Positions 56,295 to 64,000 of a stretch of 64,000 nucleotides of DNA are shown here, one piece after another. A program made the position numbers and the translations under genes. Position 1 is the stretch's first letter; the number at the start of each line of letters is the position of its first letter. This DNA is from Halarcobacter sp. (GTDB lineage Bacteria; Campylobacterota; Campylobacteria; Campylobacterales; Arcobacteraceae): assembly GCA_963676565.1 (NCBI GenBank), contig OY781089.1:3276669-3340668 (forward strand), in the 5' to 3' direction. The notes beneath the pieces were generated by a model that ran no database searches, was not told the origin of the DNA, and worked only from the letters and a program-made list of their open reading frames with translations.

Positions 56295-56657
56295 ATGTCA
56301 ACACATCTAATTCTTTCATCTATAATATTTGTTACGATAGGTTTAGTTTTAATTGGAGTTTTCTTTTTAACTAAATTTCTTGGACCAAATAAGAAAGATG
56401 ACAAACTAAAAAATACTGTTTACGAAAGTGGTATCAGTAACCCTGTTGGAGGCACAAACATCAGGTTCTCAATTAAGTTTTATCTTGTTGCAATTGGTTT
56501 TTTACTTTTTGATGTAGAAATCATATTTATGTTTCCTTGGGCTGTAAATATTTTAGATCTTGGTTATGCCGGAATTATTAAAATGTTTATTTTCATTGGA
56601 TTGCTATTTGCAGGATTAATATATATGTATAAGAAAAAGGCATTATCATGGGATTAG
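56295..56657 (+). CDS. nuoA: Complex I subunit A
   Basis: YESG, FYLVAIGFLLFDVEIIFMFPWA. Confidence 0.97.
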   Translation: MSTHLILSSIIFVTIGLVLIGVFFLTKFLGPNKKDDKLKNTVYESGISNPVGGTNIRFSIKFYLVAIGFLLFDVEIIFMFPWAVNILDLGYAGIIKMFIFIGLLFAGLIYMYKKKALSWD

Positions 56658-57163
56658 GAGCAGAAGCAAACTTAGGTGATTCTATTATCACCACAAAACT
56701 TGACGAAGCTATTAACTGGGCAAGATCGTATTCGATGTGGCCAATGGCATTTGGTACTGCATGTTGTGGTATTGAGTTTATGTCAGTTGCCGCTGCAAAA
56801 TATGATGTATCTAGATTTGGTGCGGAAGTTGTAAGATTCTCACCAAGACAAGCAGACTTACTTATTGTTGCAGGAACAATTACTTACAAACAAGCTCCTG
56901 TATTAAAAAAGATTTGGGATCAAATGTGTGAGCCAAAATGGGTTATCTCTATGGGTGCCTGTGCTTGCTCAGGTGGTTTCTATGATAACTACACAACTTT
57001 ACAAGGTATTGACGAAGTAATACCTGTTGATGAGTATGTTGCAGGATGTCCTCCAAGACCAGAGGCAGTATTAGATGCAATTATGCGAATTCAAGAAAGA
57101 TCTTACGATGAATCAATTATCAAAGATAGAGAGAAAAATTTCAAAGGGATTTTAGATGCTTAA
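56648..57163 (+). CDS. nuoB: Complex I subunit B
   Basis: GTACCGIE, SPRQAD, GACACSGG, GCPPRPE. Confidence 0.98.
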   Translation: MGLGAEANLGDSIITTKLDEAINWARSYSMWPMAFGTACCGIEFMSVAAAKYDVSRFGAEVVRFSPRQADLLIVAGTITYKQAPVLKKIWDQMCEPKWVISMGACACSGGFYDNYTTLQGIDEVIPVDEYVAGCPPRPEAVLDAIMRIQERSYDESIIKDREKNFKGILDA

Positions 57164-58790
57164 GCCAGATATGATTGTAGATTCAATAGATTTAAAAGCA
57201 ACAATTAAATCTCTTAAAGAAGAGAAAGATTATACAATTCTTCTAGATATCACTGCAGTAGATTACTTACAATATCCTGATGTTACTCCATCAAGATTTG
57301 GTGTAATTTATATTTTAAGAACAAGTGATTTCAAAAAACATTTAACTTTAAAAACTTATGTAAATGATACTACATTAGAAATCGATTCTATTACAGACCT
57401 TTATTATGCAGCAGATTGGGCAGAAAGAGAAACTTTTGACCAATATGGAATTAGATTTAAAGGTCATCCAAACTTAAAAAGAGTATTAAACCACCATCAA
57501 TTTGTGGGTCACCCATTAAGAAAAGATTATCCAGTTACAAAGGGACAAATTTGTACAGAGACTGAAGATTTAATGGATGAAATGGTTCCTTTATTAAAAA
57601 GAAAAGGTTATTCTGAATCTGATTTAGAAGAACTTATGATGTTAAATGTTGGTCCATCTCACCCTGCTTCTCATGGTACTATTAGAAACTTTGTTGCAAT
57701 GGAAGGTGAAACAATTACTGCTTGTGTAACTGAAATTGGTTACTTACATAGAGGTTTTGAAAAAGCATGTGAAACTCACAACTATTCACAAGTAATCCCA
57801 TATACAGATAGACTTAACTACTGCTCTGCGATGTTAAATAATATTGGTTATGCAAAAGCTATTGAAGATATGTTAGGTATAGATATTACTCCTAGAGCTA
57901 AAATGATTAGAGTAATTATTGGTGAGTTAAGTAGACTTACAGATCATATTGTATGTAATGCAGCAAATATGGTTGACCTTGGTGGACTTACAAACTTCTG
58001 GTATATCTTCGCTCCACGTGATAAAGCTTATGATTTATTCTCAAAATTAACAGGAGCAAGACTTACAAACTCTTACACTAGAATTGGTGGATTAGAATTT
58101 GACCTTTATGAAGGTTTTGCTGAAGATTTGGAAGATGTATTAAAAGATGTAGAAAAAGCTATTGATGATTCTTTATCACTAGTTGCTCACAATAAAATTT
58201 TCCAAGATAGAACTCAAGATGTTGGTGTAATTGATGCAAAATTTGCATTAGATGCTGGTATTACAGGTCCTAACTTAAGAGCAGCGGGAGTTCCTTTTGA
58301 CTTAAGAAAAGATACTCCATACTATGGATATGAAAACTTTGATTTTGATGTTGTAGTTGGTTCGCACGGTGATGTTTATGACAGAATCATGTGTAGATTT
58401 GAAGAGATGAGAGAATCTATGAAAATCATTAGACAAGCTATGAAAGAGCTTCCAGACGGTCCAATAAATGTTGATGCACCTGGTATTTTCTTACCATCTA
58501 AAAAAGATGTTTATGGAAATATCGAAGGGCTTATGAATCAATTCAAACTTACTTTTGAAGGTATCAAAGTTCCTAAAGGTGAATACTATGGAGCAACTGA
58601 AGGTGCTAATGGAGAATTAGGTTTTTATACTGTAAGTGATGGTTCAGGAACACCTTACAAAATTAAGTGTAGACCACCTTGTTATTATGCATTAGGTGGA
58701 TATGCAAGAATTGTAGAAGGTAATATGTTAGCTGACGCTGTTGTTACAATGGCAAGTATGAACTTTATTGCTGGGGAGTTTGATAGATAA
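57156..58790 (+). CDS. nuoCD: Fused complex I subunit C/D
   Basis: WAERETFD..G..F.GHP (NuoC) followed by NVGPSHPASHG, GYLHRGFEK, GEFDR (NuoD). Confidence 0.96.
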   Translation: MLKPDMIVDSIDLKATIKSLKEEKDYTILLDITAVDYLQYPDVTPSRFGVIYILRTSDFKKHLTLKTYVNDTTLEIDSITDLYYAADWAERETFDQYGIRFKGHPNLKRVLNHHQFVGHPLRKDYPVTKGQICTETEDLMDEMVPLLKRKGYSESDLEELMMLNVGPSHPASHGTIRNFVAMEGETITACVTEIGYLHRGFEKACETHNYSQVIPYTDRLNYCSAMLNNIGYAKAIEDMLGIDITPRAKMIRVIIGELSRLTDHIVCNAANMVDLGGLTNFWYIFAPRDKAYDLFSKLTGARLTNSYTRIGGLEFDLYEGFAEDLEDVLKDVEKAIDDSLSLVAHNKIFQDRTQDVGVIDAKFALDAGITGPNLRAAGVPFDLRKDTPYYGYENFDFDVVVGSHGDVYDRIMCRFEEMRESMKIIRQAMKELPDGPINVDAPGIFLPSKKDVYGNIEGLMNQFKLTFEGIKVPKGEYYGATEGANGELGFYTVSDGSGTPYKIKCRPPCYYALGGYARIVEGNMLADAVVTMASMNFIAGEFDR

Positions 58791-59266
58791 TGAGTAAATT
58801 TAAATATACTGAAGAAAACGAAAAAGAGTTTGCAAGAATTGCAGCTAAATATCCAAAAATTGATGCAATGATGCTTCCAGCACTATGGTTAGTTCAAGAG
58901 CAAGAGGGTTGGGTATCTCCAGAAGCAATGATTTTTGTTGCTGATAAACTAGGAAAAACACCAATTGAAGTTTATGAGTTTGCAACATTTTATACAATGT
59001 TCAACTTAAAACCAATTGGAACATACCACATTGAGTTATGTAAAACTTTATCTTGTATGTTAATGGGGGCACCTGAGCTTAAAAAATTCATCAAAGATAC
59101 TTTAGGTATTGAACCTGGTCAAACAAGTGAAGATGGAAAATTTCATTTAAGTGAAGTTGAGTGTCAAGGTGCTTGTGGTGGAGCTCCAATGATAGCATTA
59201 AATAATGAATATCATGAGAATTTAACTGTTGATAAATTAAAAAATATTATAGAGGGGTGTAAGTAA
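58790..59266 (+). CDS. nuoE: Complex I subunit E (N1a 2Fe-2S)
   Basis: ATFYTMF, CKTLSC, ECQGAC. Confidence 0.96.
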   Translation: MSKFKYTEENEKEFARIAAKYPKIDAMMLPALWLVQEQEGWVSPEAMIFVADKLGKTPIEVYEFATFYTMFNLKPIGTYHIELCKTLSCMLMGAPELKKFIKDTLGIEPGQTSEDGKFHLSEVECQGACGGAPMIALNNEYHENLTVDKLKNIIEGCK

Positions 59267-60525
59267 TGGCTGTAGAATTAATAAAAATTGTAAGCAAAAA
59301 CTTTGACATTCCAGATTCTCATAAATTAGATGTAGCTTTAAAAAACGGAAGATATGAATCTGTAGAAAAAGCTTTCTCTATGAAACCAGAAGATATCACT
59401 GAAGAGGTTTGTAAATCAGGTCTTAGAGGAAAAGGTGGTGGTGGTGCTGCTTGTGGACCAAAATGGAAATTAATGCCACCTGTTGATGAAAGACCAAGAT
59501 ATTTAATTGTAAATGGGGATGAATCTGAACCAGGAACTTTTAAAGATAGACAAATTTTCCAATACGATCCACACCTACTTATTGAAGGTATTATAGTTTC
59601 ATGTTGGGCTATGCAAGCAAATGATGCATATATTTATATTAGAGGTGAATATAAATGGTTCATTGATAGATTAAATGCAGCAATTGATGAAGCTTATGAA
59701 GCAGGAATTATTGGTGATAAAGTTATGAATAAGTATGACTTTAGAGTTGATATTACTGTTCATAGAGGTGGTGGAGCATATATCTGTGGTGAAAAATCTG
59801 CTTTAATTGAATCAATTGAAGGTAAAAGAGGACACCCAAGATTAAAACCACATGGAAAAGAGTGTGAGTGGTTTTATGGAATGCCTGCAACAGTTAATAA
59901 TGTTGAGACAATTTCATCAGTTCCAAACATAGTATTAAATGGATATGAATCATATACTAAATGGGGTACTGAAAAAGCTCCGGGTACTATGCTATTTGCT
60001 ATGAGTGGACCAGTTAAAAACCCTGGAGTTTACGAACTTCAATATGGTGAAAAGATGATTGATGTTATCAATGAAATTGGTGGAGGTATGAAAAATGGCC
60101 TTAAATTAAAAGCTGTAATCCCTGGTGGAGCATCTTGTCCAATTTTAACTGCCGAAGAGGTTGAAAAAGCTTATTTAGATTATGAATCTATGTGGGACAT
60201 CGGTTCAACATTAGGTACTGGAGGGATGATGATTATTCCTGAAGGAACTTCAATGGTTGACGTTGCAAAAAACTTAATAGAATTTTATCACCACGAGTCT
60301 TGTGGACAATGTACACCTTGTAGAGAAGGTACAGGTTGGATTGATAAAACTATCAAAAAAATTCTAGAGGGTAATGGCTCAGAAAAAGATATTGAAACTA
60401 TACTTGATGTTTGCGAAACAATGAATGGTAAAACTATTTGCGTTTTTGCACCAGCAGTAAAAGATATTATAAAAAGTATAGTTGTTAAGTATAGAAACGA
60501 ATTTACAGAATATTTTAATAAATAA
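59266..60525 (+). CDS. nuoF: Complex I subunit F (FMN, N3) with atypical nucleotide site
   Basis: NGDESEPGTFKDR, GAYICGE, NNVET, ESCGQCTPCREG...C. Confidence 0.96.
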   Translation: MAVELIKIVSKNFDIPDSHKLDVALKNGRYESVEKAFSMKPEDITEEVCKSGLRGKGGGGAACGPKWKLMPPVDERPRYLIVNGDESEPGTFKDRQIFQYDPHLLIEGIIVSCWAMQANDAYIYIRGEYKWFIDRLNAAIDEAYEAGIIGDKVMNKYDFRVDITVHRGGGAYICGEKSALIESIEGKRGHPRLKPHGKECEWFYGMPATVNNVETISSVPNIVLNGYESYTKWGTEKAPGTMLFAMSGPVKNPGVYELQYGEKMIDVINEIGGGMKNGLKLKAVIPGGASCPILTAEEVEKAYLDYESMWDIGSTLGTGGMMIIPEGTSMVDVAKNLIEFYHHESCGQCTPCREGTGWIDKTIKKILEGNGSEKDIETILDVCETMNGKTICVFAPAVKDIIKSIVVKYRNEFTEYFNK

Positions 60526-60539
60526 TTTAAGGAGATAAT

Positions 60540-61826
60540 ATGGGAAAGAATACTTTTACGTTAACAGATAATAGAGATGGCAGATCTTTTGAGTACGATA
60601 TTTTAAATGGTACAAGAGGTCCTGATGTAGTAGATATTAGATCATTTTATAAAGATTCAGGGATGTTTACTTATGACCCTGGTTATACTTCTACTGCCTC
60701 TTGTGATTCTAAAATTACATTTATTGATGGTGAAAACTCTGAACTTAGATATAGAGGTATCCCTATTGAAGAATTAGCGGGAAAGAGATCATACCTAGAT
60801 GTTTGTTATTTACTGTTTAGAGGTAATCTTCCAACAGAACAAGAGTCAAAAGATTTCGATTTAGAAATTAGACATAGATCATTTTTAGATGAAGGTATTT
60901 TAAGATTATTTGATGCACTACCAGATCATGCACATCCAATGGCAACTATGGGTGCAGCAACTATGGCTCTTGCTACAATATACAAAGATCACTTAAACTT
61001 AGAAAATGAAGAAGAGTTTAAAGTAATGAGAAGAAGAATCTTAGCAAAAATGCCAACTATTGCAGCTATGGCATTTAGAAACTCTAGAGGTGTTCCAATG
61101 ATCTATCCAGATATTGATAGATATTTCACTGAAAACTTCTTATATATGTTAAGAGCATATCCAGGTGGAAAACTAAAAAATCTTGGAAATGGATTACATG
61201 AAGAGATTAAACAAGTTGAAGTTGATGCCCTTGATGCGATTTTAACTTTACATGCTGATCATGAGCAAAATGCTTCTACAACAACAGTTAGAAATGTTGG
61301 TTCAACAGAAGCTCACCCTTATGTTGCAATTGCATCTGGTATTGCTGCGCTTTGGGGTTCTGCACACGGTGGAGCTAATGAAAAAGTTATGGATCAATTA
61401 CAATTAATTGGTGATGTTAAAAATGTGCCAACTTATATTGCAAAAGCAAAAGATAAAAATGATCCATTTAGACTTATGGGATTTGGACACAGAGTTTATA
61501 AAAACAGAGACCCAAGAGCTCAAGAGTTAAAAAGATTACAAGATAAGTTAAAAGAAGAGTTAAATCTAGATTCTAAACTTCTTGATATTGCATCTGCAGT
61601 TGAAGAAGCAGCATTAAATGATGATTACTTCAAACAAAGAGGTTTATATCCAAATATCGACTTCTATTCTGGTGTAATTTTAACTGCTCTTAAGATTCCA
61701 GTAGAGATGTTTACGCCTATTTTCGTTATCGGAAGAATTCCAGGATGGTTAGCACAATGGTCTGAATTAAAACAAGACCCTTCAGCAAAAATTGCAAGAC
61801 CAAGACAATTATATACAGGTAAATAA
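60540..61826 (+). CDS. gltA: Citrate synthase (Gram-negative type)
   Basis: TYDPGY.STASC.SKITFIDG, HADHEQNAST, HGGANE, LMGFGHRVYK, YPNIDFYSG. Confidence 0.98.
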   Translation: MGKNTFTLTDNRDGRSFEYDILNGTRGPDVVDIRSFYKDSGMFTYDPGYTSTASCDSKITFIDGENSELRYRGIPIEELAGKRSYLDVCYLLFRGNLPTEQESKDFDLEIRHRSFLDEGILRLFDALPDHAHPMATMGAATMALATIYKDHLNLENEEEFKVMRRRILAKMPTIAAMAFRNSRGVPMIYPDIDRYFTENFLYMLRAYPGGKLKNLGNGLHEEIKQVEVDALDAILTLHADHEQNASTTTVRNVGSTEAHPYVAIASGIAALWGSAHGGANEKVMDQLQLIGDVKNVPTYIAKAKDKNDPFRLMGFGHRVYKNRDPRAQELKRLQDKLKEELNLDSKLLDIASAVEEAALNDDYFKQRGLYPNIDFYSGVILTALKIPVEMFTPIFVIGRIPGWLAQWSELKQDPSAKIARPRQLYTGK

Positions 61827-61862: not shown

Positions 61863-63299
61863 ATGAGTGAACTTGTAAAATTTTCGGTGAATGGGGAAGA
61901 TATTGAAGCATCTAAAGGGAGTCTATTAATAGACTCACTTTTAGATAGAAATATTCATATTCCTCACTTTTGTTATCACCAAGCATTAGGAAAAGATGGA
62001 AACTGTAGAATGTGTATGGTTGAAATCGAAGGTCAAAAAAGGCCTCAAATTGCCTGTGATACTCCTGTAAAGGAAGGAATGGTAGTTAGAACTCAAGGTG
62101 AGAATATTGAAAAAGTTAGGCGTGATATTTTAGAACTTGAACTAATTAACCATCCAATTGACTGTCCAACTTGTGATCAAGCTGGAGAGTGTAAACTTCA
62201 AGATTATTACATGGAATCTGGTTTTTATGAAGCTAGAGTAGATGTAAATCAAAAAGTTACAGCTAAAAAAAGAGTTGAACTTGGTAGTAACGTAATGTTA
62301 GACCAAGAAAGATGTGTACTTTGTACTAGATGTGTTAGGTTCTGTTCTGATATTACAGGAACCAATGAATTAGGTGTTATTAGTAGAGCAGATCATTCTG
62401 TTATTGGAACTTTCCCAGGTCGTCCTTTAGATAACCCTTATGCAATGAATGTTGTGGATTTATGTCCAGTTGGAGCTTTAACTTCACAAGATTTTAGATT
62501 TAAACAAAGAGTTTGGTTTTTAGAATCTTTTGATGCAATCTGTAACGGATGTTCAAGAGCTTGTAATATTAGAGTAGATCATAGAAAAGAAAAATATAAA
62601 GATGACCAAATCTTTAGATTTAAGCCAAGAGTTAATAGAGAAGTTAACGGATGGTTTATGTGTGATGAAGGAAGACTTTCATATAAAAAAGAAGCTGAAA
62701 ACAGATTCTATACACCTAAAATTGGTGGAGAAGAAGTTGTATTTAGTAATACTTTAACAAATACATATAAACTTTTAGTTGATGAAAAAAGTACTTTATT
62801 CTTATTAGATCCAAATATGTCTTATGAAGAGATGGCAAATGTTAAAAATTTCGCTAAAGCAGTAAACGCTAATGTTTCTGGATTCGCTCCTCAATATATT
62901 GATGAAACTTTTGGTGATGATTATTTAAGAAAAAGTGACAAATGTGCAAATAGATCATCTTACAAAGAACTAGAGATTAGTGAAGATGAAAATGAATTTA
63001 AAAAATATCTTGATGAAGCTTCACTTGTTGTAGTATTTGGTAATACATATTTTGATGATAAATTAGAACTTTTAGAGGGTAAAACTGTTGTATCTTTATT
63101 CTCTCATGAAACTAATACTATTTCAAAATCTGATATAGCTATTCCAATTGCTTCATTTTATGAAAAATCTGGAACATATATCAACTTTGAAGGTATAAAA
63201 CAAAAAGTTATCTCTAAAATGAATAGAGATAATCCAATGGAAACGATAACTTCAATTTTAGAAAATATTCAATCAATGATAGGAAAAGGAACTATATGA
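61863..63299 (+). CDS. nuoG: Complex I subunit G (short form)
   Basis: CYH...GNCRMC, HPIDCPTCDQAGEC, CVLCTRC...CP, CNGCSRAC...C. Confidence 0.93.
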   Translation: MSELVKFSVNGEDIEASKGSLLIDSLLDRNIHIPHFCYHQALGKDGNCRMCMVEIEGQKRPQIACDTPVKEGMVVRTQGENIEKVRRDILELELINHPIDCPTCDQAGECKLQDYYMESGFYEARVDVNQKVTAKKRVELGSNVMLDQERCVLCTRCVRFCSDITGTNELGVISRADHSVIGTFPGRPLDNPYAMNVVDLCPVGALTSQDFRFKQRVWFLESFDAICNGCSRACNIRVDHRKEKYKDDQIFRFKPRVNREVNGWFMCDEGRLSYKKEAENRFYTPKIGGEEVVFSNTLTNTYKLLVDEKSTLFLLDPNMSYEEMANVKNFAKAVNANVSGFAPQYIDETFGDDYLRKSDKCANRSSYKELEISEDENEFKKYLDEASLVVVFGNTYFDDKLELLEGKTVVSLFSHETNTISKSDIAIPIASFYEKSGTYINFEGIKQKVISKMNRDNPMETITSILENIQSMIGKGTI

Positions 63300-64000
63300 A
63301 TGCAGTAATATTAATTGTAAACATTGCATTAGCAGTAGTTCTTGCAGTAGGTTTAACACCACTATTTGTTTGGTGGGAAAGAAGAATTGCAGGTTTTATC
63401 CAAGATAGAACTGGTCCAAATAGAGCCTCTATTGCAGGAATTAGACTTGGAGGATTAATCCAAGCAATTGCAGATATGTTAAAACTAGTATTTAAAGAGG
63501 ATTTTACACCTGCACACATTAGGTATAAATTTTTATATACAATCGCACCAGGGATTGTATTCTTCTGTTCATTTTTAACATTCGCTGTTATTCCATTTGC
63601 TGATAATTTAGTACTTGATGGTGTAAGTTACACTATGCAAGCAATTCCTGTTAGTTTAGGAATCTTATGGTTTTTAGCATTTGCAGGACTTTCTGTATAT
63701 GGAATTATCTTAGGTGGTTATTCATCTGAAAACAAATATGGACTTTTAGGTGGTATTAGAGCATCAGCTCAAGTTATTTCATATGAAGCAGCTATGGCTT
63801 TATCAATAATTTCTTTAGTTTTAACTTATGGTTCTATTCACTTAAATGATATGGTACACGCTCAAAGTGGTACTATTTTTGGAATTATTCCTGCATGGGG
63901 AATTTTTATGCAACCATTAGCAGCTTTAATTTTTATTGTAACTTCATTTGCAGAAACAAACAGAACACCTTTTGATATTGCTGAAGGTGAATCTGAAATT
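63296..64000 (+). CDS. nuoH: Complex I subunit H, 5' part (runs off window end)
   Basis: ATGA overlap with nuoG; translation WWERRIAGFIQDRTGPNR...IADMLKLVFKED...AQVISYE...AETNRTPFDIAEGESEI. Confidence 0.97.
   Translation, partial: MNAVILIVNIALAVVLAVGLTPLFVWWERRIAGFIQDRTGPNRASIAGIRLGGLIQAIADMLKLVFKEDFTPAHIRYKFLYTIAPGIVFFCSFLTFAVIPFADNLVLDGVSYTMQAIPVSLGILWFLAFAGLSVYGIILGGYSSENKYGLLGGIRASAQVISYEAAMALSIISLVLTYGSIHLNDMVHAQSGTIFGIIPAWGIFMQPLAALIFIVTSFAETNRTPFDIAEGESEI

What the first reader, a model, noticed from the sequence alone, without database searches (positions are those of the whole stretch)
59266..60525. NuoF with a rebuilt nucleotide pocket: a complex I that probably does not use NADH
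Seen versus the canonical sequence: GRGGAGFPTGxKWSF is GKGGGGAACGPKWKL (from 59428), YICGEETAL is YICGEKSAL (Lys codon 59794-59796), and KPPFP is KPHGK (59845-59859). FMN motifs (NxDESEP, NNVET) and N3 cysteines are intact. Known: in Thermus Nqo1, F70, F78 and F205 surround the adenine and E185 (E. coli E183) binds the adenosine ribose; changing E. coli E183 raises NADPH oxidation. All four positions are changed here, with Glu replaced by Lys and additional basic residues. Campylobacter and Helicobacter lack NuoEF altogether. Inference: a natural NADPH-preferring, or other-donor, proton-pumping complex I. I am not aware of it being characterised.
Basis: partly seen in the sequence, partly recalled or inferred. 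Interest (0 to 1): 0.78.

Follow-up and report, generated by a model that had tools for sequence, protein, structure and literature searches.

The report
Complex I NuoF with rebuilt adenosine pocket
The electron-input subunit of this bacterium's respiratory complex I keeps its flavin and iron-sulfur sites but has a remodelled pocket for the adenosine end of NADH, a change shared by its whole bacterial phylum that may make the enzyme burn NADPH instead.

Summary
Window 59266-60525 encodes a 419-aa NuoF inside a nuoA-H operon of a Halarcobacter. Its FMN, nicotinamide and N3 motifs are intact. The adenosine sub-site is changed relative to Thermus Nqo1: R65K, A68G, F70A, E185K, PFPA to HGKE, and G210W.

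This is not strain decay. Lys177 is present in 120 of 120 close homologues and in 42 of 42 Campylobacterota orthologues read (54-100% identity, at least six families). It is present in 0 of 150 nearest family representatives. The clade is one branch (support 100).

Across the family, loss of this Glu goes with loss of the adenine-stacking aromatic. Thermoanaerobacter kivui HydB, recalled as NADP-dependent, shows the same double loss.

The same genome also holds:
- an epsilon-type (flavodoxin-type) complex I;
- an NDH-2-like gene;
- an NADP-type monomeric isocitrate dehydrogenase.

No PntB was found.

Best reading: a complex I that accepts NADPH, either preferring it or using both nucleotides (about 0.5). 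The main rival is a rebuilt but still NADH-specific pocket (about 0.3). Nothing here measures activity.

The papers I could read call this enzyme "canonical". I found no description of the changed pocket. One relevant preprint could not be read.

The parts
56295..56657 (+). nuoA
   Evidence: PF00507, E 5e-31
56648..57163 (+). nuoB
   Evidence: PF01058, E 3e-27
57156..58790 (+). fused nuoCD
   Evidence: PF00329 plus PF00346 in one 544-aa ORF
58790..59266 (+). nuoE (N1a 2Fe-2S subunit)
   Evidence: PF01257, E 1e-52. The four Cys are visible in the translation.
59266..60525 (+). nuoF, 419 aa, with a variant adenosine pocket
   Evidence: PF01512, SLBB and PF10589. NF010120 scores 437 against a cut-off of 389; TIGR01959 scores 501.7, below its cut-off of 558.65. 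AF2 pLDDT 95.1. TM 0.95 to complex I NuoF chains.
59428..59472 (+). Glycine-rich loop and first adenine jaw: G55-K56-G-G-G59-G-A61-A-C-G-P-K66-W-K-L69
   Evidence: K56 is 42/42 versus R in 137/150. G59 is 42/42 versus A in 119/150. Position 61 is A35/G7 versus F135/Y7.
59794..59796 (+). Lys177 codon, in place of the adenosine-ribose Glu (Thermus E185, E. coli E183)
   Evidence: K in 42/42 clade genomes and 0/150 representatives. Codons AAA 36 and AAG 6.
59845..59877 (+). Rebuilt loop K194-P-H196-G197-K198-E199-C-E201-W202-F-Y204, replacing KPPFPAxSGLW
   Evidence: Position 197 is never aromatic (0/42) versus F/Y in 130/150. E199 is 42/42. Position 202 is aromatic in 42/42 versus G in 146/150.
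60540..61826 (+). gltA (citrate synthase) embedded between nuoF and nuoG
   Evidence: PF00285, E 5e-128. NF004126 scores 609 against a cut-off of 505. Same position in 21 of 21 Arcobacteraceae genomes.
61863..63299 (+). Short nuoG (478 aa)
   Evidence: Fer2_4, NADH-G_4Fe-4S_3 and Fer4_Nqo3 domains. TIGR01973 scores 362.7, below its cut-off of 470, matching model positions 2-337 of 606.
63296..64000 (+). nuoH, cut by the window and contig end; it continues at the start of the contig
   Evidence: PF00146. Matching pieces at G000:C1:1-534.

Best explanation
This is the flavoprotein subunit of a working 14-subunit-type complex I. Hydride transfer from a nicotinamide nucleotide to FMN, and electron flow through N3, are unchanged. 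The sub-site that holds the adenosine half of the nucleotide has been rebuilt:
- both aromatic jaws that sandwich adenine are removed (F70 to Ala/Gly, F205 to Gly or a polar residue);
- the Glu that binds the adenosine ribose diol and excludes a 2'-phosphate is replaced by Lys;
- basic residues (His/Lys196, Lys/Arg198) line the loop;
- a new Trp202 and Glu199 appear.

I infer that the enzyme accepts NADPH, as the preferred substrate or alongside NADH. It would couple NADPH oxidation to quinone reduction and proton pumping. In autotrophic relatives it could run in reverse to make NADPH.

In this genome it would drain NADPH made by the NADP-type isocitrate dehydrogenase. Flavodoxin/ferredoxin would go to the second, epsilon-type complex I, and NADH to an NDH-2-like enzyme.

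Shown here: the residue changes, their conservation, the intact cofactor motifs and fold, and the gene inventory. Inferred: the substrate.
For: (1) Only the adenosine end is changed. K66, W67, D85-E86-S-E88, Y172, G175-E176, K194-P195, N211-N212-V-E and the N3 cysteines match the family consensus.

(2) The change is conserved. GEKSAL is in 120/120 homologues of at least 80% identity. K177, K56, G59 and E199 are each in 42/42 orthologues read, out of 54 found in 401 Campylobacterota genomes. The clade is one side of a branch, support 100, stem length 0.25. Lys codons turn over synonymously.

All 80 listed loci carry Campylobacterota labels or are unlabelled MAGs. 76 of the 80 also carry GKGGGG[AG], and 73 of the 80 carry RLKPxxxE.

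(4) The two lost residues co-vary across the family. Of 148 representatives, 128 have Glu plus an aromatic, 14 have neither, and 3+3 are mixed (not corrected for relatedness).

(5) There is a precedent. T. kivui HydB (8a6t_B) reads GESTAL and RPPRTNE. A. woodii HydB (7q4v_B) reads GEETAL and RPPFPAN. 8A6T is identified as T. kivui in the preprint 10.64898/2026.06.25.734504. That T. kivui HydABC is NADP-specific and A. woodii HydABC NAD-specific is recalled; of PMC8578170 I saw only the search listing.

(6) In Synechocystis HoxF the two aromatic residues pi-stack the adenine of NADH, and NADPH is not used (preprint passages).

(7) Genome context (99.97% complete):
- no PntB;
- no protein reaching the SthA model cut-off among the 9 best Pyr_redox_2 hits;
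- the only isocitrate dehydrogenase found is monomeric and matches A. vinelandii 1itw_A at E = 0, with His589, Arg600 and Arg649 conserved (that these residues bind the 2'-phosphate is recalled);
- a separate epsilon-type complex I;
- an NDH-2-like gene.

(8) That E. coli E183 variants gain NADPH:quinone activity with proton pumping (Morina et al. 2011) is recalled; the paper is not held.
Against: There is no activity measurement and no ligand placement.

Two new acidic residues are invariant or nearly so (E199 in 42/42; E/D201 in 42/42). If they face the pocket they would disfavour a 2'-phosphate. They could instead take over the ribose-binding role of the lost Glu, with W202 replacing the lost Phe.

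The basic loop positions are not invariant: position 196 is H28/K9/Q4/A1, position 198 is K36/P3/R3, and position 68 is K22/E10 plus others.

The T. kivui-type proteins keep the first aromatic jaw (F/Y at position 61). This clade does not, so the analogy is partial.

The genome makes NADH (two lipoamide dehydrogenases above cut-off). The NDH-2 assignment rests on homology only (E 6.6e-34 to 4nwz_A).

Every paper I could read treats this enzyme as NADH-dependent, though none reports an assay.
Confidence: 0.5

Rival explanations
1. The pocket is rebuilt but still NADH-specific. The ribose-binding carboxylate has moved from position 177 to Glu199 (paired with Lys177 and Lys56). The adenine-stacking aromatic has moved from positions 61 and 197 to Trp202/Phe203. 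The enzyme is then an ordinary NADH:quinone oxidoreductase with a lineage-specific architecture.
For: The gains are as invariant as the losses: E199 in 42/42, an aromatic at 202 in 42/42 (G in 146/150 elsewhere), K56 in 42/42. That pattern fits compensation. The genome encodes NADH producers (lipoamide dehydrogenases). Reviews and genome papers assume NADH. NCBIfam NF010120 still names it NuoF.
Against: Replacing the discriminating Glu by Lys and adding basic loop residues is the direction expected for 2'-phosphate binding. Across the family, loss of Glu goes with loss of the aromatic, as in T. kivui HydB. An NDH-2-like gene can cover NADH oxidation. NADP-type IDH without PntB leaves NADPH without an obvious sink.
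Confidence: 0.3
2. The site binds a donor other than NAD(P)H, for example another nicotinamide or flavin nucleotide or a protein donor docking at the opened pocket.
For: Both aromatic jaws are lost, which enlarges the pocket more than a simple NAD-to-NADP switch needs. Relatives in the phylum have replaced the whole input module for other donors (passages of PMC6682613; earlier AI notes).
Against: All residues around the FMN, nicotinamide and pyrophosphate positions are kept, so a nicotinamide dinucleotide remains the simplest ligand. The genome already has a flavodoxin-type complex I. No RnfC and no further PF01512 gene was found.
Confidence: 0.07
3. The N-module is inactive or decaying.
For: The NuoF score lies below the TIGR01959 cut-off, and NuoG is short and below the TIGR01973 cut-off.
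Against: The frames are open. Orthologues at 54-100% identity span at least six families with the variant residues invariant. Codon turnover is synonymous. pLDDT is 95.1. RNA-library contigs of close relatives cover nuoE, nuoF, gltA and nuoG (weak support).
Confidence: 0.02

Closest known systems
Canonical NuoF / Nqo1 / NDUFV1 of complex I (Thermus 2FUG/3I9V, Paracoccus 8QBY, Mycobacterium 8E9G, E. coli 7AWT)
   Same: Same domains, operon place and fold (TM 0.95, 41-43% identity). Same FMN and nicotinamide motifs and N3 cysteines.
   Different: The adenosine sub-site differs: R65K, A68G, F70A/G, E185K, P204H/K/Q, F205 non-aromatic, P206K/R, A207E, G210W. The score is below the TIGR01959 equivalog cut-off.
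Engineered E. coli NuoF E183 variants (Morina et al. 2011, J Biol Chem 286:34627; recalled, paper not held)
   Same: Same position, the Glu that contacts the adenosine ribose, is replaced. Those variants gained NADPH:ubiquinone activity coupled to proton translocation (recalled).
   Different: Here the change is natural, is to Lys, comes with eight further conserved changes, and defines a clade. Its activity is untested.
HydB of the Thermoanaerobacter kivui electron-bifurcating hydrogenase (PDB 8A6T)
   Same: A NuoF homologue that has lost both the ribose Glu (GES) and the second adenine jaw (PPRT). Recalled to use NADP.
   Different: It belongs to a soluble bifurcating hydrogenase, not complex I. 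It keeps the first aromatic jaw and the canonical Gly at the position of W202, and it has Ser rather than Lys.
Epsilon-type complex I of Campylobacter jejuni / Helicobacter pylori (NuoX/NuoY in place of NuoEF; flavodoxin donor; Weerakoon and Olson 2008, as cited in PMC6682613)
   Same: Same phylum and the same theme of a changed electron input. A copy is present in this very genome.
   Different: There the whole NuoEF module is replaced. Here NuoEF is kept with FMN and its clusters, and only the adenosine pocket is changed.
GltD/NfnB-type 'long-headed' complex I of Sulfurimonas and relatives (bioRxiv 10.1101/717884; known to me only from earlier AI notes, and a search listing; not read)
   Same: A predicted NADPH-type input to complex I in the same phylum, also untested at the bench according to those notes.
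   Different: There a different flavoprotein (FAD, GltD-like) replaces NuoF. Here it is a true NuoF.

Membership tests
NuoF (complex I 51-kDa flavoprotein) | Domain architecture: Complex1_51K, SLBB, NADH_4Fe-4S | tested here: met
   PF01512 at 1.4e-42, PF22461/PF10531, and PF10589 at 1.9e-28
NuoF (complex I 51-kDa flavoprotein) | Curated equivalog models | tested here: inconclusive
   NF010120 scores 437.1, above its cut-off of 389. TIGR01959 scores 501.7, below its cut-off of 558.65. NF008436 scores 355, below 749.
NuoF (complex I 51-kDa flavoprotein) | Fold of Nqo1 | tested here: met
   AF2 pLDDT 95.1 and pTM 0.93. Foldseek TM 0.95 and rmsd 1.8-2.2 to 8e9h_F, 8qby_F and 3i9v_1.
NuoF (complex I 51-kDa flavoprotein) | FMN/nicotinamide-site residues and the four N3 cysteines | tested here: met
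   K66, W67, D85, E86, E88, Y172, G175, E176, K194, P195, N211, N212 and C346/349/352/392 are conserved.
NuoF (complex I 51-kDa flavoprotein) | Gene in a nuo operon next to nuoE and nuoG | tested here: met
   The order is nuoA-B-CD-E-F-(gltA)-G-H.
NuoF (complex I 51-kDa flavoprotein) | NADH adenosine pocket: two aromatic jaws (Thermus F70, F205) and the ribose Glu (E185) | tested here: not met
   The residues here are A61, G197 and K177. The family has F/Y in 142/150 and 130/150, and E in 131/150.
NuoF (complex I 51-kDa flavoprotein) | NADH:acceptor oxidoreductase activity | not testable with these tools
No assay of this clade was found in searches.
NADP-type NuoF homologues (T. kivui HydB pattern) | Ribose Glu replaced by a non-acidic residue, and the second aromatic jaw replaced, often by a basic residue | tested here: met
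   Here: GEK and P-H-G-K. 8a6t_B: GES and P-P-R-T. 14 of 148 representatives show the double loss.
NADP-type NuoF homologues (T. kivui HydB pattern) | Preference for NADP(H) shown by assay | not testable with these tools
   The T. kivui specificity is recalled, and only a listing was seen. Nothing is known for this clade.

The most novel reading that the evidence does not exclude
The NuoEF-type complex I of Campylobacterota, found in Arcobacteraceae, Sulfurospirillaceae, Sulfurimonadaceae, Sulfurovaceae and one genus of a sister family of 158 sampled genomes (possibly the C. fetus group), is a natural proton-pumping NADPH:quinone oxidoreductase that discriminates against NADH. If so, a whole phylum wires its NADP-linked TCA cycle directly to the respiratory chain, and its autotrophs could make NADPH by reverse electron flow. 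As I recall it, this activity was described as not found in nature when it was engineered in E. coli.
Probability: 0.3. Interest if true: 0.8.

Novelty: new variant of a known kind. Interest (0 to 1): 0.62.

Why it matters
Complex I is taken to be an NADH enzyme wherever NuoE and NuoF are present. Genome papers and a review on this phylum therefore score the Arcobacter, C. fetus and Sulfurospirillum enzymes as "canonical" NADH dehydrogenases.

If the rebuilt pocket switches or broadens the nucleotide, several things follow:
- Metabolic models of these bacteria, which include food-borne, sulfur-cycling and hydrothermal-vent species, assign the wrong redox carrier to a main energy-conserving step.
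- There would be a natural template for NADPH-driven proton pumping.
- It would give a defined set of about nine residues that encode nucleotide choice in the NuoF fold, which is also used by soluble hydrogenases and formate dehydrogenases of biotechnological interest.

If the pocket still prefers NADH, it is an example of a binding site rebuilt from different residues. That is of structural but lesser interest.

Tried and rejected
- **Names of 'GES'-type clusters.** Ten clusters looked up gave only automatic NuoF/HndC names and no specificity information.
- **P0257 as a T. kivui proxy.** It was used only as a query to bring 8a6t_B into view. Its own KYIHT motif is not the T. kivui one.
- **Papers not held.** Berrisford and Sazanov 2009, Morina 2011, Birrell and Hirst 2013, Carlone and Lascelles 1982, and Weerakoon and Olson 2008. 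The residue roles in Thermus and E. coli are therefore recalled. They are supported only by matching residue numbers in the alignments and by the HoxF preprint.
- **Paper cap.** It was reached. Not read: bioRxiv 10.1101/717884, PMC8578170, PMC10021017 and PMC5861303. The first may discuss the NuoEF-type enzyme of this phylum, so my statement that the pocket is undescribed is limited by it.
- **Pfam NDH2_C.** It gave no hit, but the E. coli control did not ring either, so the test is weak. The NDH-2 candidate came from Pyr_redox_2 plus PDB homology instead.
- **NqrA.** None found.
- **Earlier findings by place.** Nothing.
- **Raw RNA reads of run X20.** None laid, so no test.
- **Pocket geometry.** The model's coordinates are not exposed to scripts, so no distances or electrostatics could be computed.
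- **Complex prediction.** Not used, because a ligand cannot be the scored partner and NuoE-NuoF is a textbook pair.
Full report
**What is there**

Window 59266-60525 (+) is a 419-aa open frame. It carries the Complex1_51K, SLBB and NADH_4Fe-4S domains.

It lies in the gene order nuoA, nuoB, fused nuoCD, nuoE, nuoF, citrate synthase (gltA), a short nuoG (478 aa), nuoH. The window ends at the end of the single 3.34-Mb contig, and nuoH continues at its start.

Named close homologues are from Halarcobacter, Arcobacter and Aliarcobacter.

**The observation**

The HMMER alignment to Thermus Nqo1 (2fug_1) has no gaps in these regions. Counting along it gives these equivalences:

| Thermus | Window |
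|---|---|
| R65 | K56 |
| A68 | G59 |
| F70 | A61 |
| P71 | A62 |
| T72 | C63 |
| F78 | L69 |
| E185 | K177 |
| K202 | K194 (kept) |
| P204 | H196 |
| F205 | G197 |
| P206 | K198 |
| A207 | E199 |
| G210 | W202 |

In full-length E. coli NuoF (7awt_F) the same Glu is residue 183.

The roles of F70, F78, F205 and E185 in holding adenine and the adenosine ribose are recalled from Berrisford and Sazanov 2009. So is the gain of NADPH activity by E183 variants (Morina 2011). Neither paper is held. The residue numbers I derive match those I recall.

A 2026 preprint on Synechocystis HoxF states that the two equivalent tyrosines pi-stack the adenine of NADH and that NADPH is not a substrate (passages).

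**Is it more than a strain oddity?**

GEKSAL is present in 120 of 120 homologues of at least 80% identity.

A scan of 401 Campylobacterota genomes found orthologues of 54-100% identity in 54:

| Family (coded) | Genomes with an orthologue |
|---|---|
| Window's own family (f1) | 21 of 24 |
| f11 | 18 of 19 |
| f4 | 3 of 20 |
| f14 | 1 of 1 |
| f3 | 10 of 158 (all in one genus, 10 of its 13) |
| f7 | 1 of 34 |

I read 42 of the 54. The 12 left out were 8 of f11 and 4 of that genus. All 42 carry GKGGGG[A/G], GEK[S/T]A and LKPxxxE.

Column by column, against the 150 nearest representatives of the whole NuoF/HoxF/HydB family (all at or below 51% identity):

| Position | Clade (42 genomes) | Representatives (150) |
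|---|---|---|
| K56 | 42/42 | R in 137 |
| G59 | 42/42 | A in 119 |
| 61 | A35, G7 | F135, Y7 |
| K177 | 42/42 | E in 131, K in 0 |
| 196 | H28, K9, Q4, A1 | P in 142 |
| 197 | never aromatic | F84, Y46 |
| 198 | K36, R3, P3 | P in 128 |
| E199 | 42/42 | A in 81 |
| 202 | W35, F6, Y1 | G in 146 |

The residues around the FMN, the nicotinamide and cluster N3 follow the family consensus.

F78 is weakly conserved in the family (F in 68, L in 19), so its change means little.

The 42 sequences form one side of a branch with support 100 and a stem of 0.25 changes per site (FastTree with 70 representatives). This fits a single origin.

The Lys codon is AAA in 36 and AAG in 6 genomes, and the neighbouring Cys-Gly-Glu codons occur in 11 combinations. 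The amino acids are therefore held by selection.

The 80 listed loci are all labelled Campylobacterota or are unlabelled MAGs. The labelled groups are Arcobacteraceae, Sulfurospirillum, Sulfurimonas, Sulfurovum, Nitratifractor, and "Helicobacteraceae" and "Campylobacteraceae" MAGs. In those loci 76 of 80 also show the first motif and 73 of 80 the third; the rest are cut short.

**Integrity**

The AF2 model has pLDDT 95.1 and pTM 0.93. Its three least confident 10-residue blocks (82-86) are exactly the three rebuilt segments. Foldseek gives TM 0.95 to NuoF chains of Mycobacterium, Paracoccus and Thermus complex I.

NCBIfam places the protein above the cut-off of NF010120 but below that of TIGR01959.

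Contigs from three RNA libraries (two studies) of 95-99% identical relatives cover nuoE, nuoF, gltA and nuoG, and bridge both gltA junctions. This is weak support for expression, since DNA can be present in such libraries.

**What the change points to**

Only the adenosine half of the site is altered. A nicotinamide dinucleotide that differs at that end is the simplest candidate.

Replacing an acidic residue at the ribose diol by a basic one is the classic direction of an NAD-to-NADP switch (established principle).

Within this family the two lost features go together. Among 148 representatives with residues at both columns, 128 have Glu and an aromatic, 14 have neither, and 6 are mixed. Relatedness is not corrected for.

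The solved HydB of Thermoanaerobacter kivui (8a6t_B; organism confirmed) reads GESTAL and RPPRTNE. Acetobacterium woodii HydB (7q4v_B) reads GEETAL and RPPFPAN. I recall that the T. kivui enzyme is NADP-specific and the A. woodii enzyme NAD-specific. Of the paper concerned (PMC8578170) I saw only the search listing.

**Genome context (99.97% complete)**

- A second complex I of the epsilon type, with the small PF16514 protein, a 271-aa protein and an 836-aa NuoG in place of NuoE, NuoF and NuoG. It is the kind reported to take electrons from flavodoxin (PMC6682613, passages). This makes a protein donor for the NuoEF-type enzyme less likely.
- No PntB and no NqrA.
- Among the nine best Pyr_redox_2 genes, none reaches the SthA model cut-off. 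Two are lipoamide dehydrogenases.
- One 400-aa protein is most like solved NDH-2 enzymes (4nwz_A at 6.6e-34, YjlD, S. aureus NDH-2).
- The only isocitrate dehydrogenase found is monomeric. It matches the A. vinelandii enzyme at E = 0 and keeps His589, Arg600 and Arg649. I recall these as the 2'-phosphate ligands.
- gltA sits inside the operon in 21 of 21 Arcobacteraceae genomes, which ties this complex I to the TCA cycle.

Together this gives a coherent but inferred scheme. NADPH from the cycle goes to this enzyme, reduced flavodoxin/ferredoxin to the epsilon-type enzyme, and NADH to NDH-2.

**What speaks against**

There is no assay and no ligand pose, and I had no access to model coordinates.

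The gains are as invariant as the losses (E199, aromatic 202, K56). E/D201 is also invariant. A moved carboxylate and a moved aromatic could rebuild an NADH site from other residues.

The basic loop residues vary.

T. kivui-type proteins keep the first aromatic jaw, so the analogy is partial.

I therefore put NADPH acceptance (preferred or dual) at about 0.5, a still NADH-specific pocket at about 0.3, another donor at about 0.07, and decay at about 0.02.

**Literature**

Searches found no paper describing this pocket.

The papers read in passages call the enzyme "canonical", "standard" or NADH-linked:
- PMC6682613
- PMC4794192
- PMC2147049
- PMC4585668
- PMC5630845
- PMC3144371, which notes only that Arcobacter NuoH does not group with C. 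jejuni and H. pylori

Earlier AI notes of this scan point to a different, GltD-type NADPH-like input module in Sulfurimonas-type operons and to bioRxiv 10.1101/717884.

**Verdict**

This is a real, selected, phylum-specific variant of NuoF with a specific, testable prediction. It is a new variant of a known kind.

Noticed in passing
window 60540-61826: A citrate synthase gene (gltA) sits between nuoF and nuoG. The same order, nuoCD-nuoE-nuoF-gltA-nuoG, is found in 21 of 21 Arcobacteraceae genomes examined. In other families nuoF is followed by nuoG or by a convergent nuoN.
   Followed up: partly
window 61863-63299: The NuoG of this operon is only 478 aa. It matches model positions 2-337 of 606 in TIGR01973 and scores below its cut-off. 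Most of the C-terminal molybdopterin-like part is missing. The other complex I of the genome has an 836-aa NuoG.
   Followed up: no
G000:C1:~399000-413200 (L169): A second complex I operon of the epsilon type lies in the same genome: nuoA-D, an 88-aa PF16514 protein, a 271-aa protein with no Pfam match, an 836-aa NuoG, then nuoH-N.
   Followed up: partly
G000:C1:~277800-283000 (L001, L202): A HoxEFUYH-type NiFe hydrogenase cluster (HoxE and HoxU above their NCBIfam cut-offs). Its HoxF reads GGGGYPTG, GEATAL and KPPHLS, so it also lacks the ribose Glu and the second aromatic jaw. Both NuoF-family proteins of this genome deviate at the same positions.
   Followed up: partly
family representatives P0121-P0270: About a tenth of the nearest NuoF/HydB/HoxF representatives (14 of 148) lack both the ribose Glu and the PFP aromatic. 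They often have Arg or His in its place, as in GES with PPR, PPH or KY.HT. This may be a general sequence marker of non-NAD specificity in the fold.
   Followed up: partly
G000:C1:~1888440-1889640 (L177): A 400-aa Pyr_redox_2 protein is closest to solved NDH-2 enzymes. It is a candidate non-pumping NADH:quinone oxidoreductase.
   Followed up: partly
window 63296-64000 and G000:C1:1-534: The nuo operon runs across the ends of the single contig, so the assembly was opened inside nuoH.
   Followed up: no
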